This document shows, in pieces, positions 15,586 through 60,695 of a stretch of DNA of 64,000 nt. The notes under the pieces were generated by a model. That model saw only the letters and a list, made by a program, of their open reading frames with translations, ran no database searches and was not told the origin of the DNA. The DNA is from Desulfobaccales bacterium (lineage in GTDB: Bacteria > Desulfobacterota > Desulfobaccia > Desulfobaccales > 0-14-0-80-60-11), in NCBI GenBank assembly GCA_052326585.1, contig JBKQLU010000048.1, forward strand, positions 6,590 through 70,589, given 5' to 3'. How positions within the stretch are numbered: position 1 is the first letter of the stretch; every line of letters begins with the position of its first letter. A program made the position numbers and the translations under genes.

Positions 15586-15696
15586 TTTCCCCCTCTCCGG
15601 CGCCGCCGCCGTCCTCTATCACTGTTGCCAATAAACTTTCAGTCATTATATTATTATGCATGTGGAGAAATTTGGCAAATCCGCCCTTCAGAGGTA

Positions 15697-17595
15697 ATGA
15701 TGGCCGATAACCCCCAAGCCAGCTCTCCGGCCCGCTATCTCATCTGGTACTTGCTGGCCGTAATCTTGATTTTGCTGGTTTTTCAAATTTATGGCGGCGT
15801 CAAACCGGCTACCCAGATCAGCTACAGCGAATTTCGCCGTTTGCTGGAAACCAAGGGAATCGACGACCTGACCATCTACCCCGGGAGCATCACCGGCGAG
15901 CTCCTGCCGGCCGGCGTCGAGCAACTGACCAAAGAGCGGAAAGAACCGGACCTGCCTAAAAAGTTGGCTCAATTGCCCGATAACAAGGAACCTAACTTCA
16001 CCGTGGACCGGGTGGAGGATAAGGACCTGGTGCCGCTTCTGGAAAAGCAAGGGATCAAGTACAGCGCCGCGCCGGATAGGACCGCGATCAACAACCTCCT
16101 CTCCTGGGGACTGCCGATTTTGCTGCTGGTAGGCATCTGGATCTATTTCTTCCGCAGGGTCGGCGCCAGTACCGGCGGCCTGATGACGGTGGGCAAAAGC
16201 CGGGCCCGGGTTTACGCCCAGGATGAGACCAAGGTCACCTTCCAGGATGTGGCCGGGGTGGATGAGGCCATTGAGGAACTCAAAGAGATCATCGAATTCC
16301 TGAAAAATCCCGCCAAGTTTCAGATGCTGGGGGGCAAGATCCCCAAAGGGGTGCTGCTGGTAGGACCGCCGGGAACCGGCAAGACCCTGTTGGCCCGGGC
16401 CGTAGCCGGAGAGGCCGGGGTGCCTTTCCTGAGCCTGACCGGCTCCGACTTCGTGGAGATGTTCGTGGGGGTGGGAGCGGCCCGGGTGCGGGACCTGTTC
16501 GCCACCGCCCAGGAGAAGGCCCCTTGCATCATCTTCATCGATGAACTGGACGCCGTGGGCAAGGCCCGGGGGGTGAGCCCCATGGGCGGTCCCGAAGAAC
16601 GGGAAAATACCCTGAACCAGCTCCTCTCGGAGATGGACGGCTTTGACACCCGCAAAGGCGTGATCATTATGGCGGCCACCAACCGCCCGGAGATCCTGGA
16701 CCCGGCCCTGATCCGTCCGGGGCGCTTCGACCGGCACATCCTGGTGGACCGGCCCTCCCTCCCGGGCCGGGAAGAAATCTTGCGGATTCATTCCCGGCAG
16801 ATCAAGCTCTCCGACAAGGTCGACCTCAAGACCCTGGCGGCCCGCACCCCCGGGATGGTGGGCTCGGACCTGGCCAACATCGTTAACGAAGCGGCCCTCC
16901 TGGCAGCCCGGAAGAATAAAGAGGCGGTGGAGATGGACGATTTCGAGGAGGCCATCGACCGGGTGGTGGCTGGCCTGGAAAAACGCAACCGGGTCATGAA
17001 CCCCCGGGAGAAGGAGATCGTCGCCTACCATGAAACTGGCCACGCCCTGGTGGCCGAGGCCCTGCCCACCGCCGACAAGGTGCACCGGGTCTCCATCATC
17101 CCCCGGGGCATCGGCGCCCTGGGCTACACCATGCAGTTGCCCACCGAGGACCGCTATCTGATGACCAAGACTGAACTGGAAGACCGCATGGCGGTTATGC
17201 TGGGAGGCCGGGCGGCCGAGGAGCTGGTCTTTCAGGAGATTTCCACCGGGGCCCAAAGTGATCTCTACCGGGCCACCGATATTGCCCGTTCCATGGTGCG
17301 GGAGTACGGCATGAGCGAGAAGCTGGGCCCCATCACCTTCGAGCGGGAGCGGCGGCCCCTGTTCCTGGACGGTATCATGCCGACCTCCGGCAAAGATTAT
17401 AGCGAAGCCACGGCCCAGGAGATCGATCAAGAGGTGGCGGACCTGATGGCCCTGGCCCACCGGCGGGCCAGGGAGGTCCTGGAGGCACAGCGGCCCACCC
17501 TGGAGAAGGTTGGCAAGATTCTCCTGGAAAGGGAGGTGCTGGAGGGCGAGGAGCTGCGGCAGATCTTAAATTCCATCACGCCGCCGCAACCCTAA
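15697..17595 (+). CDS. ftsH: ATP-dependent zinc metalloprotease FtsH (paralog 1)
   Basis: Walker A 'GPPGTGKT', Walker B 'IIFIDELD', SRH '[20 protein letters not shown]' and zinc site 'HETGHAL'. The ATG at 15697 follows GAGGT. Confidence 0.95.
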
Positions 17596-39988: not shown

Positions 39989-40185
39989 CGGTGCCACCGG
40001 GACTCGAAGGGCGGGCGGCGGTCCCTGCCCCGCCCTGAAACTTCCCTTACCGGAGGCTGCCTTGCTCCGGCCGGGTCAACATCAAGATTACCTTGCATTT
40101 TCTACAGATAAATTTAAAATAATAATTTGAACAAATCTAGTAACAGGTCAGAATGTCCATATCTGACCGCTTCTTAAGGACGATA

Positions 40186-42069
40186 ATGAATAAGCGCTTG
40201 AGCCCGTTTTCTAAGAATATCGCCTTGTGGCTGCTTATCACCCTGGTGATGATTGTGCTGTACAATTATTTCTCCATCGTCGAGAGCAACCGGGGTAAGT
40301 CCACCATCACTTACAGCAAGTTTGTGGAGATGGTGAAGGCTGACCGGGTGGCCAAGGTCACCCTGAAGGGAAATGAAATTACCGGGGAGTACTCTGACGG
40401 CAAGATCTTCAAAAGTTATGGCCCCGGCGACCCGGACATGGTGAAGTTGCTCGAGTCCAAAAAGGTGGAGATCACCGCTGAGAACAAGGATGACAGCTCC
40501 TGGTACGGGACTTTGCTGGCTTCCTGGTTGCCCATGATATTGCTGGTGGGCATCTGGATCTTCTTCATGCGCCAGATGCAGGCCGGCGGCGGCAAGGCCA
40601 TGTCCTTCGGCAAGAGCCGGGCTCGCCTGATGACCGAAAACACCGTGAAGATCACCTTCAATGACGTGGCCGGCATCGAGGAAGCCAAGGAAGAAGTATC
40701 GGAGATCATCGACTTCCTGAAAGACCCCAAGAAGTTTACCCGCCTGGGGGGACGCATCCCCAAGGGGGTCCTCCTGGTAGGGGCGCCGGGGACCGGCAAA
40801 ACCCTGCTGGCCCGGGCCATCGCCGGGGAAGCCGCGGTCCCCTTCTTTAGCATCAGCGGCTCCGACTTCGTGGAGATGTTCGTAGGCGTGGGCGCCGCCC
40901 GGGTGCGGGACCTGTTTATTCAGGCCAAGAAAAGCGCCCCCTGCATCATCTTCATCGATGAGATCGACGCAGTGGGCCGCCATCGGGGCGCCGGGCTGGG
41001 CGGCGGCCACGACGAGCGGGAGCAGACCTTGAACCAGCTCCTGGTGGAGATGGACGGATTTGAGGCCAACGAAGGGGTTATCCTGATCGCCGCCACCAAC
41101 CGCCCTGATGTGTTGGACCCGGCCCTGCTAAGGCCTGGCCGTTTCGACCGCCAGGTGGTGGTCCCGGTTCCGGACCTCAAAGGCCGGGAGGCCATCCTCA
41201 AGGTCCATACCCGCCGCACCCCTCTATCCGATTCGGTGGACCTCTCCATCCTGGCCCGGGGCACCCCCGGATTCTCCGGGGCCGATCTGGAGAACCTGGC
41301 CAATGAGGCCGCCTTGTTCGCCGCCCGCCGGGGTAACGAAACGGTGGCCATGGAAGACTTTGAGCAGGCCAAGGACAAGGTCCTCATGGGTACGGAACGC
41401 CGGAGCCTCATTCTGAGCGAGCGGGAGCGGCGCAATACCGCCTACCACGAAGCGGGCCACACCCTGGTGGCCAGGCTCAGCCCCGGCGCCGACCCAATCC
41501 ATAAGGTGACCATCATCCCCCGGGGGCGGGCCCTGGGTCTTACCCAGCAGTTGCCTCTGGACGAACGCCACACCTATTCCAAAGATTTCCTGATGTCCGT
41601 GCTCACCGTGCTTCTGGGTGGCCGGGCCGCTGAGGATCTGGTTTTTCAACAGTTTACCACCGGCGCGGGCAACGATCTGGAGCGGGCTACCGACCTGGCC
41701 CGGAAGATGGTGTGCAACTGGGGCATGAGCGATGAGCTGGGGCCGGTCACCTTCGGGAAAAAGGAAGAGCATATCTTTCTAGGCCGGGAGTTCGCCCAAT
41801 CCAAGGATTTTAGCGAGGATACGGCCCGCGTCATCGACGCCGCCATCAAAAATCTGGTATTAAAGGCCTCCGGGCAAGCGCAATCCTTGCTTTCCAAGCA
41901 CCGGGGGCAATTGGAAATCCTGGCCCAGGGCCTCCTGGAAAAAGAGACCCTGGACAGCCGGGAGATCGACAAGATCCTGGCTGTAGTTGAGCAACCGCAG
42001 GAAGAAGCCCCGGAACCCCAGGGGGAGTCGCGGGATCCCGACCAGTTTCCCTTGAGCCAGCGAGCTTAA
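40186..42069 (+). CDS. ftsH: ATP-dependent zinc metalloprotease FtsH (paralog 2)
   Basis: '[15 protein letters not shown]', Walker A 'GAPGTGKT', 'IIFIDEID', '[20 protein letters not shown]' and 'HEAGHTL'. The ATG at 40186 has SD AAGGA. It forms the conserved ftsH-folP neighbourhood. Confidence 0.95.
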
Positions 42070-58289: not shown

Positions 58290-58449
58290 CTGGTGGCACC
58301 GGCGTCCCGCCTGTGACAGAAATGGACTTTTGGGGGCAGGCCGGTGGTGGCGGGCCTCCGGGCCCGCCAAACAATCGGCGGCCACAGGCCGCCCTATATC
58401 TGAGACACAAGCAAGACCGGTTTGTAAAAAGCTATTATCCGGAGGCCCC

Positions 58450-59916
58450 TTGAAACCCGAACAATTTCCCGACGATATCCGGCCCTTTCTCATCCCGAAG
58501 CCGGAAGGGGATCTGGTCTATCGCTGTCTCGAATGCGGGGCGGAGTATGACATCAGCCGGCTCCTCTACACCTGCCCCAAGTGCCGGGGCCTCTTCCTCC
58601 TGGAGGATAAGGCCGCCGGCCGCCTCCAGCAGCGCTCCGGGGCCTTTTGGCGCCGGTTGTTCGATTACCGCAAGATGCTCAACCTGCCGGCCCTGAAAGG
58701 GGTCTTTCTCTTTTATGAACTGATTGCCCCGGTCATACCCCTGGAGGATATCATCTACCTGGGGGAAGGCCACACCCCTCAGGTGGCCGCCAACGAGGCG
58801 TTGCAGGCGGAAGTCGGCGGGGCCTTTTATTATAAAAACGACGGCCAGAACCCCAGCGCCTCTTTCAAAGACCGGGGCATGGCCGCGGCCTTGAGCTATC
58901 TCAACTATCTGGCGCGCCAGTCCGGGGCCGGCAAGATCCTGGCCATCTGCGCCTCCACCGGCGACACCTCCGCGGCCGCGGCCCTTTACGCCGCTTACCT
59001 GGGAAGCCGGGTGGCCTCCGCGGTCCTCCTGCCCCACGGCAAGGTCACCCCCCAGCAACTGGCCCAGCCCCTGGGCCACGGCGCCAGGGTATTAGAGATC
59101 CCCGGGGTCTTCGACGACTGCATGAAGGTGGTGGAGTCCCTGGCGGACCACTACCAGGTGGCCCTGCTCAACTCCAAGAACGCCTGGCGCATCCGGGGCC
59201 AGGAGTCATTCGCCTACGAGATCGCCCAGTGGTTCGACTATGACCTGGCCGGCAAGGTCGTGGTGGTGCCCATCGGCAACGCCGGCAACATCACCGCCAT
59301 CATGCAGGGCTTCCTGCGCCTCCACGGCCTCAAGATCATCGACACCCTGCCCCGGATCATCGGGGTCCAGTCCCGCCACGCCGACCCGGTGTTCCGCTAC
59401 TATCTGGAGCCGGACCCGGCGAAACGGGTCTTCAAACCGGTGACCGTGCAACCCAGCGTGGCCCAGGCGGCCATGATCGGCAACCCGGTATCCATGCCCC
59501 GGGTCATCCGCCTGATGGCGGAATACCACCGCGCCGCCGGCGCGGGCTCCGTGGCCGTGGTCCAGGTGCGCGAACAGGAGATCATGGACTCCATGCTGCT
59601 GGCCAACCGCCACGGCCACATCGCCTGCACCCAGGGGGGCGAATCCCTGGCCGGCTTCCGGGCCGCCTTGAAAGAGAGGCTGGTGGAGCCAGGAGAAACC
59701 GCGGTGCTGGACGCCACCGCCCACCATCTCAAGTTCATCGGTTTCCAGCAGATGTACTTTGAGGACTCCTTTCCGCCGGAGTTCGAGGTGGTCCCCAAGG
59801 CCGAGTACCGCAATCGGCCGCAGTTGCTGACCCCCCGGACCGCTGACCCGGGAGAGCAGACCGCCGATTTGGCGGCACAAATCGCCGCCTTGTTAGAATT
59901 GACCCCAAGGGAGTAA
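58450..59916 (+). CDS. thrC: threonine synthase with N-terminal zinc-ribbon
   Basis: 'YRCLECGAEY...YTCPKCRG' forms the zinc ribbon. The PLP-Lys motif is 'NPSASFKDRGMA'. 'PIGNAGNITA' is also present. The start is assigned to the TTG at 58450 (SD GGAGG 4 nt upstream) and is uncertain. Confidence 0.85.
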   Translation: MKPEQFPDDIRPFLIPKPEGDLVYRCLECGAEYDISRLLYTCPKCRGLFLLEDKAAGRLQQRSGAFWRRLFDYRKMLNLPALKGVFLFYELIAPVIPLEDIIYLGEGHTPQVAANEALQAEVGGAFYYKNDGQNPSASFKDRGMAAALSYLNYLARQSGAGKILAICASTGDTSAAAALYAAYLGSRVASAVLLPHGKVTPQQLAQPLGHGARVLEIPGVFDDCMKVVESLADHYQVALLNSKNAWRIRGQESFAYEIAQWFDYDLAGKVVVVPIGNAGNITAIMQGFLRLHGLKIIDTLPRIIGVQSRHADPVFRYYLEPDPAKRVFKPVTVQPSVAQAAMIGNPVSMPRVIRLMAEYHRAAGAGSVAVVQVREQEIMDSMLLANRHGHIACTQGGESLAGFRAALKERLVEPGETAVLDATAHHLKFIGFQQMYFEDSFPPEFEVVPKAEYRNRPQLLTPRTADPGEQTADLAAQIAALLELTPRE

Positions 59917-60117
59917 TGCCGGACTCGGTAACTAGTATTTATCAAATCAAATGAAAAACCTGAGTTCCGGGGGTATTAAAGTCCCATTTTGTCAAAGGCG
60001 GGTTCAAGAACCGCGGTTGGAAATGTCCTGGCAATTATGGAGCGCCACACTCCCGAGGTTGCTTCTCCGTTGGCCCGATCTTACCTTTTCTCCGAGACCG
60101 GAAAAGGAGAAGGGAAG

Positions 60118-60537
60118 ATGCAGAAAGCAAGGTCATGGCTGCTGCTGGTGGCGCTCAGCCTGATGCTGGCGATCCCTTGGTCATGTTCCAGCGCCCAGGC
60201 CCCCGGACCGGAAGCCCCGCGTCTGGCCCCCGAAACTCTAAAAAGCTGGCTCTCCGACCCCCAGGTACTTATCCTGGATGTGAGGCAGCCTCCGGAATGG
60301 GCCAGCAGCGATAAAAAAATCGCGGGCGCGGTGCGCCAGGATCCCAACGATGTCAAGACCTGGGCCACGGGCCTGCCGAAGGAGAAAAAAATCGTCCTGT
60401 ACTGCTCCTGACACAACGAGGGCACCAGCGCCCGGGTGGCGCAGCAATTGCTAGCAATGGGCTTCCCCCAGGTTTGGGCCTTGAAAGGCGGCTGGACGGA
60501 ATGGGAGAGGAGGGGCTACCCCACCGATTCGCAATGA
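60118..60537 (+). CDS. exported rhodanese-like protein, predicted selenoprotein (in-frame UGA = residue 98)
   Basis: The track ORF stops at the TGA at 60409-60411, in the middle of the rhodanese active-site loop ('KKIVLYC96-S-TGA-HNEGTSARVAQQLLAMGFPQVWALKGGWTEWERRGYP'). The same frame stays open for 41 more codons that complete the domain (GGW..W..GYP). A GC hairpin with a CGGGU loop lies 16 nt downstream. SD AAGGAGAAGGG precedes the ATG at 60118. Confidence 0.6.
60428..60442 (+). promoter_or_regulatory. SECIS-like hairpin (GCGCC-CGGGU-GGCGC)
   Basis: A 5-bp GC stem with a G/U-containing apical loop starts 16 nt after the UGA. This is within the spacing range reported for bacterial SECIS elements. 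It was not evaluated with a covariance model. Confidence 0.35.
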
Positions 60538-60695
60538 GAACCGTGGTGGCAGGTGGGGGTTATAAAGGGTTCCGGATTATGCCGGCGTCGAGCCTGGCGG
60601 CAAAGTGCTAATGTGGTATTTCCGCAGAACTTCTAAAGAGAGTTTCACGGAAAGCATTGCCAACTCAAGGGGTTGTCCTTGGTGATATTTTCATT

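What the first reader, a model, noticed from the sequence alone, without database searches (positions are those of the whole stretch)
60118..60537. Rhodanese-like gene interrupted by an in-frame TGA in its active-site loop (Cys-Ser-UGA): probable unannotated selenoprotein with a SECIS-like hairpin
The ORF track ends the gene at TGA 60409-60411. That point is two codons after the canonical rhodanese catalytic Cys ('IVLYC96-S97-*').

The same reading frame continues without a stop for 41 codons. Those codons encode exactly the missing C-terminal third of a rhodanese domain ('HNEGTSARVAQQLLAMGFPQVWALKGGWTEWERRGYPTDSQ'). A frame-preserving stop that sits in a redox-active loop next to a Cys is the classic footprint of selenocysteine.

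A GC-rich hairpin, GCGCC-CGGGU-GGCGC at 60428-60442, starts 16 nt after the UGA and has a G/U-containing apical loop. This is compatible with bacterial SECIS geometry.

The protein has a signal peptide, so it would be a periplasmic C-x-U sulfur/selenium transferase or reductase. From memory, rhodanese-related selenoproteins have been listed in metagenomic selenoproteome surveys, so the family may not be new. Standard gene calling would nevertheless truncate this gene.
Basis: partly seen in the sequence, partly recalled or inferred. Interest (0 to 1): 0.7.

Follow-up and report, generated by a model that had tools for sequence, protein, structure and literature searches.

The report
Known CxU rhodanese selenoprotein gene
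The "interrupted" rhodanese gene is very probably a real selenocysteine-encoding gene with its own recoding hairpin, but it belongs to a selenoprotein family that is already catalogued (NCBIfam NF041203, motif LYC[A/S]U), so it is a correct but ordinary catch.

Summary
ATG 60118 opens a frame that meets TGA at 60409-60411 after ...KKIVLYCS. It then continues for 41 sense codons to TGA 60535-60537.

Read through, the product is a complete rhodanese domain: Pfam scores 60 bits against 29 bits for the truncated form. It passes the curated NCBIfam equivalog NF041203 "rhodanese_LYCAU, rhodanese-related (seleno)protein" at 151.9 bits (cut-off 115).

All 81 loci that matched the motif (the window plus 80 others) carry TGA at this codon, never TAA or TAG. 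They span 42-98% amino-acid identity and include a Nitrospirota genome. The codons after the TGA vary mainly at third positions, as translated sequence does.

- 99.7% of cells are paired, and two of five pairs show compensatory changes.
- Fourfold-degenerate sites inside the stem are almost fixed.
- The hairpin fits the published bacterial SECIS rules.

Two reviews (2022, 2026) already list this family as a predicted selenoprotein with a CxU motif and unknown function.

Not tested: the Sec machinery. None lies in the window, and the source appears to be a metagenome. It is also unresolved whether C96 or U98 sits at the canonical nucleophile position.

The parts
60104..60109 (+). Shine-Dalgarno-like AAGGAG, 8 nt upstream of the ATG
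   Evidence: Read directly from the sequence.
60118..60537 (+). Full coding sequence of the rhodanese-related selenoprotein: 139 residues including Sec98, with stop TGA at 60535-60537.
   Evidence: Translation. Pfam Rhodanese covers 2-101 of 102 positions at 60.4 bits on read-through. NCBIfam NF041203 scores 151.9 bits against a cut-off of 115.
60118..60198 (+). Probable Sec-type signal peptide. It has a basic n-region (MQKARS), a hydrophobic core (WLLLVALSLMLAI), and a likely signal-peptidase I site after AQA27.
   Evidence: Read from the sequence. An N-terminal hydrophobic segment and an AxA-type site precede a conserved APR[LM] in orthologues. No signal-peptide predictor was available, so this is an inference.
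60229..60510 (+). Rhodanese domain (residues 38-131), spanning the UGA.
   Evidence: Pfam PF00581 match. PDB rhodaneses 6mxv, 1yt8, 3tp9 and 1qxn were hit by sequence.
60403..60405 (+). Cys96 codon (TGC), the partner residue of the CxU motif.
   Evidence: TGY is present in all 75 distinct orthologous sequences (T1 and G2 invariant in alignment A2). One further locus, L079, has TGA here.
60409..60411 (+). Sec-encoding UGA (residue 98).
   Evidence: TGA in 81 of 81 loci that matched the motif, never TAA or TAG. Codons after it vary mainly at third positions.
60409..60426 (+). Active-site loop U-H-N-E-G-T (U-x4-T).
   Evidence: Glu is invariant in 75 of 75 sequences and Thr is present in 73 of 75. 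Cx4[R/T] is the catalytic loop motif of active rhodanese domains (PMC10135228).
60428..60442 (+). Bacterial SECIS core hairpin: stem 60428-60432 paired with 60438-60442, apical loop CGGGU at 60433-60437.
   Evidence: It is the RNAalifold consensus. 99.7% of cells are paired, 2 of 5 pairs are compensatory, and 0 of 500 shuffles reach the covariation score. Stem wobble sites are nearly fixed. The hairpin alone folds at -7.6 kcal/mol and lies 21 nt from the UGA to the loop. These values meet the criteria quoted in PMC13188914.

Best explanation
**What it is**
The stretch 60118-60537 is one gene for a small exported single-domain rhodanese. UGA 60409-60411 is decoded as selenocysteine (Sec98), giving the active-site motif Y-C96-S-U98-H-N-E-G-T.

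**How recoding would work**
Recoding is directed by a 5-bp, 5-nt-loop hairpin that lies inside the coding sequence, with 21 nt between the UGA and the loop. In a Sec-competent host this hairpin would recruit SelB carrying Sec-tRNA(Sec). The gene is a member of the catalogued family NCBIfam NF041203 (rhodanese_LYCAU), the "CxU" form of the rhodanese selenoproteins.

**Shown here**
- Family membership.
- Conservation of the UGA.
- Coding constraint downstream of the UGA.
- A conserved, covarying SECIS-like hairpin.

**Inferred, not shown**
- The product is secreted to the periplasm.
- A selenolate acts as nucleophile, taking up a sulfur or selenium atom (or being oxidised).
- Cys96 resolves the intermediate through a Se-S bond.
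- The physiological substrate is unknown.
For: **Sequence and family**
- The frame and motif are as described.
- Read-through completes the rhodanese domain.
- NF041203 scores 151.9 bits against a cut-off of 115.
- More than 100 database homologues are 93-97 aa products ending in ...LYC[AS].

**Conservation of the UGA**
- 81 of 81 loci that matched the motif carry TGA. They include a Nitrospirota genome contig at 51% identity and metagenome loci down to 42% identity.
- Entropy at codon positions 1, 2 and 3 downstream of the UGA is 0.59, 0.52 and 1.26. Upstream it is 0.94, 0.68 and 1.52.

**The hairpin**
- It is the RNAalifold consensus.
- Pair 60429/60441 reads U-A in 40 sequences, C-G in 23, U-G in 11 and is unpaired in 1.
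- Pair 60432/60438 reads C-G in 71, U-G in 2 and A-U in 2.
- Fourfold-degenerate sites 60432 (C in 71 of 75) and 60438 (G in 73 of 75) are nearly fixed, while those outside the stem have entropy 1.3-1.8.
- The Ser codon in the stem is AGY in 75 of 75 sequences, against 48% AGY for Ser codons elsewhere.
- Loop position 2 is an invariant G followed by G or U. Spacing is 21 nt and the hairpin alone folds at -7.6 kcal/mol. All fit the bSECIS model.

**Standard genetic code**
- TGA is a common ordinary stop in the window, used by 15 of 53 long ORFs, so the code is standard.

**Literature**
- The family is listed as a predicted selenoprotein with a CxU motif.
Against: - No selA, selB, selD or tRNA-Sec was found in the 64-kb window or in the flanks of related loci. 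The rest of the genome could not be examined.
- The hairpin is short, and the local fold is not better than shuffles for this single sequence.
- No Rfam SECIS family matches.
- The hairpin persists in variants that have lost Sec (L094, L096-98) and can still be drawn in Cys-type L018-21. It is therefore not exclusive to UGA carriers.
- The covariation counts are not corrected for phylogeny.
- No experimental evidence exists for this family. The reviews list it as "predicted" with unclear function.
Confidence: 0.88

Rival explanations
1. It is a pseudogene: a TGC/TGT-to-TGA nonsense mutation truncated a Cys-type rhodanese in this lineage.
For: Variants that have lost the redox residues do exist in close relatives. 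L096-98 have TAC-TGC deleted and TGA changed to CGA. L094 has TTA in place of TGA.
Against: - TGA is present at the same codon in 81 of 81 loci that matched the motif, across 42-98% identity and at least two phyla.
- The downstream codons keep the third-position variability pattern of translated sequence.
- The Cys-type relatives are not CxC. They have a loop two residues shorter.
Confidence: 0.02
2. The gene is intact but is a relic in this organism. The Sec machinery has been lost, so only the truncated 97-residue peptide is made.
For: No sel genes or tRNA-Sec lie in the 64-kb window. The exact gene occurs only on metagenome-assembly contigs, so the genome could not be checked.
Against: - The UGA, Cys96, the loop and the hairpin are all intact.
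- They are identical or near-identical in several independent assemblies of close relatives.
- Loss of decoding would be expected to be followed quickly by decay, or by conversion of the kind seen in L096-98.
Confidence: 0.05
3. UGA is a sense codon here (Trp or Gly in an alternative genetic code), or it is read through without Sec.
For: Some public gene calls of relatives show W at this position (P0043, P0105).
Against: - P0105 also runs through its normal stop to 220 aa, which points to a caller using a TGA=Trp table rather than to biology.
- TGA ends 15 of 53 long ORFs in the window, including this gene itself.
- The position is a redox site next to Cys, with a dedicated conserved hairpin.
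Confidence: 0.02
4. The hairpin is only a by-product of the conserved peptide T-S-A-R-V-A-Q and has no RNA function.
For: - The stem lies wholly in coding sequence for a conserved helix N-terminus.
- It persists in Sec-less variants.
- The single-sequence fold is not significant.
Against: - Selection is visible at synonymous sites. Ser is AGY in 75 of 75 sequences and never UCN.
- Two fourfold-degenerate sites in the stem are nearly fixed and pair with each other.
- The Ser and Ala wobble bases covary (C-G 23, U-A 40, U-G 11, C-A 1; Fisher p = 5e-10, not corrected for phylogeny).
- Cys-type L095 has lost pair 2.
Confidence: 0.05

Closest known systems
NCBIfam NF041203 "rhodanese_LYCAU", rhodanese-related (seleno)protein. 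[quoted passage not shown]
   Same: - Single rhodanese domain and the motif L-Y-C-[A/S]-U.
- An HMM score above the curated cut-off.
- UGA followed by a coding-region hairpin.
- An N-terminal export signal in orthologues.
   Different: Nothing essential. This clade has Ser instead of Ala between Cys and Sec (LYCSU). The copy here is uncalled or truncated in public gene calls.
Other rhodanese-domain selenoproteins: forms 1, 2 and 4 (UxxS, UxxG) and TsoB (NF045694, UxxxxU).
   Same: A rhodanese fold with Sec in or at the active-site loop.
   Different: - They lack a Cys two residues before the Sec.
- TsoB is a 572-position fusion model, and this protein scores only 26 bits against its cut-off of 805.
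Exported Cys-type single-domain rhodaneses: E. coli PspE (COG0607) and the Wolinella Sud polysulfide-sulfur transferase (PDB 1qxn).
   Same: - Small size, an export signal and a single catalytic rhodanese domain.
- A Cx4[R/T]-length loop if U98 is taken as the nucleophile.
- 1qxn is a sequence hit at E = 6.6e-5.
   Different: - Sec replaces Cys, and there is an extra vicinal Cys.
- The loop carries an invariant Glu, whereas the PDB rhodanese loops aligned (CGGGFRS, CRTGGRS) carry none.
- No functional data exist for this protein.
Bacterial SECIS consensus (Zhang and Gladyshev 2005, as summarised in PMC13188914); the archetype is E. coli fdhF.
   Same: - A hairpin directly downstream of the UGA, inside the ORF.
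- A 3-9 nt loop with G then G or U at its start.
- UGA-to-loop spacing of 16-37 nt and an MFE of -7.5 kcal/mol or lower.
   Different: - The conserved stem is minimal, at only 5 bp.
- No conserved lower stem or bulge was detected.
- No Rfam SECIS model matches.

Membership tests
NCBIfam NF041203 rhodanese_LYCAU (rhodanese-related selenoprotein) | Whole-protein HMM score at or above the curated cut-off (115 bits) | tested here: met
   151.9 bits, E = 6.5e-45, covering model positions 9-125 of 126, with Cys substituted for Sec.
NCBIfam NF041203 rhodanese_LYCAU (rhodanese-related selenoprotein) | L-Y-C-[A/S]-U motif, with U encoded by an in-frame UGA | tested here: met
   The window reads LYCS-TGA. 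Orthologues read LYCA or LYCS followed by TGA in 81 of 81 loci that matched the motif.
Bacterial selenoprotein gene | The UGA is conserved among orthologues, and sequence after it is under coding constraint | tested here: met
Bacterial selenoprotein gene | Cys-containing homologues align with the Sec position | tested here: inconclusive
   Cys-type relatives (LYCQKEGT, LYCAKGLT) have one Cys and a loop two residues shorter. Their Cys matches U98 in the helix register and C96 in the strand register. No LYCxC homologue was seen.
Bacterial selenoprotein gene | A SECIS stem-loop downstream of the UGA that meets the consensus: 3-9 nt loop, stem of at least 4 bp, G in the first two loop positions, 16-37 nt spacing, MFE of -7.5 kcal/mol or lower | tested here: met
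   The loop is CGGGU (5 nt), the stem is 5 bp, the spacing is 21 nt, and the hairpin folds at -7.6 kcal/mol. The criteria are taken from PMC13188914.
Bacterial selenoprotein gene | The SECIS is conserved with compensatory change in UGA-bearing orthologues | tested here: met
   99.7% of cells paired, 2 of 5 pairs compensatory, and 0 of 500 shuffles reach the covariation score. An independent RNAalifold run gives the same helix. Caveat: the sequences are related, and no tree-aware test was run.
Bacterial selenoprotein gene | The host encodes SelA, SelB, SelD and tRNA-Sec | not testable with these tools
   None was found in the window or in locus flanks.
Bacterial selenoprotein gene | Selenium is incorporated into the full-length product | not testable with these tools
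   This requires 75Se labelling or mass spectrometry.
Catalytically active rhodanese domain | A Cx4[R/T] or Cx5R catalytic loop at the end of strand beta-3 | tested here: inconclusive
   U98-HNEG-T103 fits U-x4-T, whereas C96 would give C-x6-T. The motif definition comes from PMC10135228. HMMER alignments to PDB rhodaneses disagree on which residue matches the catalytic Cys.
Rfam SECIS families | A covariance-model match | tested here: not met
   No SECIS family matched at E up to 10 in 60300-60600 or at gathering score in the whole window.

The most novel reading that the evidence does not exclude
The CxU rhodaneses may not be classical sulfurtransferases. They may instead be periplasmic selenenylsulfide-based redox enzymes, for example reductases or carriers for polysulfide, selenium or metalloid species. 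Three observations are compatible with this reading:
- The active-site loop carries an invariant Glu, which may be poorly suited to an anion-binding cradle.
- A vicinal Cys is always present.
- One contig (L079) shows a possible UxU double-Sec form.

The function of the family has never been tested experimentally.
Probability: 0.25. Interest if true: 0.45.

Novelty: already known. Interest (0 to 1): 0.2.

Why it matters
The practical value lies in annotation. The exact 97-residue truncated product of this gene sits unnamed in public protein collections. At least one NCBI record of a relative is also a truncated call. Selenoproteome counts for Desulfobaccales-like and Nitrospirota metagenomes are therefore underestimates unless UGA-aware calling with NF041203 is applied.

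Biologically, the family is widespread in anoxic sediment and wetland metagenomes, and its function is uncharacterised. The comparative data assembled here would help an experimental study:
- an invariant Cys, Sec, Glu and Thr in the loop;
- a minimal 5-bp SECIS;
- natural Sec-less and Cys-type derivatives.

They do not change what is known.

Tried and rejected
- **Rfam scans** (gathering score on the whole window; E up to 10 on 60300-60600). No SECIS family matched, only noise.
- **Single-sequence folding of 60409-60470.** The fold is no better than shuffles, z = 0.02. Single-sequence thermodynamics is therefore uninformative here, and only the comparative analysis shows the hairpin.
- **Genome-contig scan with the single protein.** It returned only 2 loci, one of them useful. 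The metagenome scan with an alignment gave the needed 80 loci.
- **Search for Sec machinery.** ARAGORN found no tRNA-Sec in the window or in 43 loci. Pfam on 30 of the largest window ORFs found no SelA, SelB or SelD.
- **Search for other selenoprotein genes in the window.** Two in-frame-TGA scans returned only out-of-frame junk besides this gene.
- **Gene-neighbourhood analysis for function.** Close relatives share the order PALP enzyme, rhodanese, 4HBT thioesterase, RlmH-like SPOUT methyltransferase, nitroreductase. A distant clade shares a divergent DndB-like gene, a cyclophilin and DUF547. Neither neighbourhood suggests a sulfur or selenium pathway.
- **Deciding between C96 and U98 as nucleophile by alignment to PDB rhodaneses.** The alignments disagree.
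- **Structure prediction.** It was not run, because the tools return no coordinates or residue-level superposition that could settle the register.
- **Lipoprotein reading of the conserved W-S-C.** Rejected as unlikely: from my knowledge of the PROSITE-type lipobox, Trp at position -2 does not fit it. Distant orthologues have no Cys there and have plain AxA sites instead.

Full report
**1. The observation**

- An ATG at 60118 is preceded by AAGGAG at 60104-60109.
- It opens a frame that reads MQKARSWLLLVALSLMLAIPWSCSSAQA...KKIVLYCS and meets TGA at 60409-60411.
- The frame then stays open for 41 codons (HNEGTSARVAQQLLAMGFPQVWALKGGWTEWERRGYPTDSQ) to a second TGA at 60535-60537.
- GCGCC-CGGGU-GGCGC lies at 60428-60442.

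On their own these features are weak evidence. A 41-codon open stretch is not unusual in G+C-rich DNA. The 62 nt after the UGA fold no better than dinucleotide shuffles (z = 0.02). The case therefore rests on homology and comparison.

**2. One gene, one domain**

The Pfam Rhodanese model (PF00581) covers positions 2-69 of 102 in the truncated product, at 29.1 bits. With read-through it covers positions 2-101, at 60.4 bits. The downstream 41 codons thus encode the missing end of the same domain.

**3. The family is already curated**

With Cys substituted for the UGA, the protein scores 151.9 bits against NCBIfam NF041203, "rhodanese_LYCAU", an equivalog model with the product name "rhodanese-related (seleno)protein" (cut-off 115). 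The next best models are far below their cut-offs: ChrE at 48 against 120, and TsoB at 26 against 805.

Two reviews of prokaryotic selenoproteomes list the family:
[quoted passage not shown] It is listed among predicted families whose "functions are not clear".
[quoted passage not shown] It credits the 2005 bSECISearch paper of Zhang and Gladyshev.

A rhodanese-related selenoprotein family was also in the 2005 Sargasso Sea survey.

**4. Conservation of the UGA**

A protein search returned 190 relatives. Most are 93-97 residues long, cover 70% of the query, and end in ...IVLYC[SA]. These are truncated gene calls.

I fetched DNA for 88 loci and read the frames:
- a Nitrospirota genome contig, L001, at 51% identity;
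- long contigs syntenic with the window;
- 80 metagenome loci at 42-78% identity.

All 81 loci that matched the motif, counting the window, carry TGA at the same codon and never TAA or TAG. L008 (frameshifted further on) and L030 also show an in-frame stop there.

Across 75 distinct sequences, mean column entropy at codon positions 1, 2 and 3 is 0.59, 0.52 and 1.26 for the 36 codons after the UGA. It is 0.94, 0.68 and 1.52 for the 50 codons before it. Both sides therefore evolve as translated sequence. This excludes a lineage-specific nonsense mutation.

TGA also terminates 15 of 53 long ORFs in the window, including this gene, so the genetic code is standard.

**5. The hairpin**

RNAalifold on a gap-free alignment of the 75 distinct sequences predicts exactly one helix: 60428-60432 paired with 60438-60442. 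Pair counts:
- 99.7% of cells form standard pairs.
- 2 of 5 pairs show changes on both sides.
- 0 of 500 shuffles reach the observed covariation score.
- Sliding the 3' arm by 1-3 columns drops pairing to 20-66%.

Pair 60429/60441 reads U-A in 40 sequences, C-G in 23, U-G in 11 and C-A in 1 (Fisher p about 5e-10, not corrected for phylogeny). Both bases are wobble positions, of a Ser codon and an Ala codon. Pair 60432/60438 reads C-G in 71 sequences, U-G in 2 and A-U in 2.

The synonymous-site evidence is the strongest:
- Fourfold-degenerate sites in the stem are nearly fixed. Site 60432 is C in 71 of 75 (entropy 0.35). Site 60438 is G in 73 of 75 (entropy 0.18).
- Comparable sites outside the stem have entropies of 1.3-1.8.
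- The stem Ser is AGY in 75 of 75 sequences, whereas only 48% of other Ser codons in the same genes are AGY.

The element fits the published bacterial SECIS constraints quoted in PMC13188914:
- a 5-nt loop (3-9 allowed) and a 5-bp stem (at least 4 required);
- an invariant G at loop position 2, followed by G or U;
- 21 nt between the UGA and the loop (16-37 allowed);
- -7.6 kcal/mol for the bare hairpin, and -9.1 to -10.6 with flanks (-7.5 or lower required).

Caveats:
- The conserved stem is minimal.
- No Rfam SECIS model matches.
- The stem is still present in derivatives that have lost Sec (L094, L096-98), and it can be drawn in Cys-type L018-21. It is broken in Cys-type L095. This is what recent derivation would give, but it means the hairpin is not strictly exclusive to UGA carriers.

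**6. Anatomy and likely mechanism**

The N-terminus has a basic n-region, a 13-residue hydrophobic core and an A-Q-A site before a conserved APR[LM]. Distant orthologues have plain A-x-A sites. Export by the Sec pathway to the periplasm is therefore likely, but this is an inference, since no predictor was available.

The active-site region is Y95-C96-S97-U98-H-N-E101-G-T103-S. C96, U98 and E101 are invariant, and T103 is nearly so.

Active rhodaneses carry a Cx4[R/T] or Cx5R loop at the end of strand beta-3 (PMC10135228). The two possible registers give different answers:
- Counting back from the helix, U98-x4-T103 fits this motif and C96 does not (it would give C-x6-T).

HMMER alignments to solved rhodaneses split the same way. 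Domain 1 of 6mxv aligns without gaps and places U98 on the catalytic Cys. Domain 2 of 6mxv and 3tp9 place C96 there, with a two-residue gap. Cys-type relatives have a single Cys and a loop two residues shorter (Cx4T).

I lean towards U98 as the nucleophile with C96 as the resolving partner, forming a selenenylsulfide. This is an inference.

The substrate is unknown. Conserved neighbours give no pathway clue:
- In the window's clade: a PALP enzyme, a 4HBT thioesterase, a SPOUT methyltransferase and a nitroreductase.
- In a distant clade: a divergent DndB-like gene, a cyclophilin and DUF547.

**7. What could not be tested**

No tRNA-Sec, SelA, SelB or SelD lies in the window or in the flanks of 43 related loci. 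The window also holds no other credible in-frame-TGA gene.

The exact gene occurs on contigs of metagenome assemblies, so the rest of the genome is out of reach. A close relative is labelled Desulfobaccales by NCBI. Deltaproteobacteria, as the group was then called, are known to be rich in selenoproteins (PMC1794560). This is supportive background, not a test.

**8. Verdict**

- The family is already catalogued, so novelty is "already known" and interest is low.
The exact 97-residue truncated product is in public collections without a name, and one NCBI relative (MGO9176126.1, 95 aa) is a truncated call.

Noticed in passing
L079:2136-2144: One metagenome orthologue reads TAT-TGA-ACC-TGA (LY-U-T-U-AREGTS). 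The partner Cys codon is also TGA, upstream of the same hairpin. This could be a UxU double-Sec variant, or a single-base error or mutation of TGY. It was seen only once.
   Followed up: partly
L096:3001-3414 (also L097, L098; protein P0001 = MGD0971173.1): A syntenic orthologue found on at least 54 contigs has TAC-TGC deleted and TGA changed to CGA, giving "IVL--SRNNEGTS". It has neither Cys nor Sec and would be a catalytically dead rhodanese. NCBI still names it "rhodanese-related (seleno)protein". The hairpin is retained.
   Followed up: partly
L094:136-543 (protein P0003): A full-length relative has TTA (Leu) at the Sec codon, one base away from TGA, with the hairpin intact. It comes from a single 750-nt contig. 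It could be a real loss or a sequencing error.
   Followed up: partly
proteins P0043 and P0105 (JGI gene calls): Both show Trp at the Sec position (LYCAWPNEGTS). P0105 also runs through its normal stop to 220 aa. The gene caller apparently applied a TGA=Trp table to these contigs, which accidentally yields near-full-length products.
   Followed up: no
L018-L021 and L095 (Cys-type relatives): Cys-type genes (LYCQKEGTIVRVA) can still form the equivalent stem, UCGUC/GGCGA, around CGGGU. Their first pair has changed from G-C to U-A. L095 (LYCAKGLTSARLA), which is syntenic with the window's clade, has a C.U mismatch at pair 2. This suggests Cys forms arose from Sec forms by a 6-nt deletion and carry a decaying SECIS.
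   Followed up: partly
window 60418-60420 (Glu101) and PDB 3k9r alignment: The active-site loop carries a Glu that is invariant in 75 of 75 orthologues, whereas the loops of the PDB rhodaneses aligned (CGGGFRS, CRTGGRS) carry none. The Cys-less cyanobacterial rhodanese-like protein Alr3790 has a similar DEQTS at the aligned place.
   Followed up: no
L025, L028, L050 and about 20 other metagenome loci: In the distant (42-50% identity) clade the selenoprotein gene has recurring neighbours. A divergently transcribed DndB-like protein of about 416 aa occurs in 20 loci. A downstream cyclophilin-type PPIase occurs in 16 loci and a DUF547 protein in 11. No functional link is evident.
   Followed up: partly
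window 58330-59916 (+): The upstream gene is a PALP-fold (threonine-synthase-like) enzyme. Its N-terminal extension carries CLECG...CPKC, which looks like a zinc ribbon. The PALP-rhodanese adjacency is kept in 9 related loci.
   Followed up: no
window 15625-17595 (+) and 40153-42069 (+): There are two full-length FtsH paralogues (FtsH_ext, AAA and Peptidase_M41 domains) within 25 kb of each other.
   Followed up: no
protein MGO9176126.1 (P0126) and P0135: Public records hold truncated calls of this gene family. One is a 95-aa NCBI "rhodanese-like domain-containing protein". The other is the window's own 97-aa product, which is unnamed and occurs on 7 contigs.
   Followed up: no
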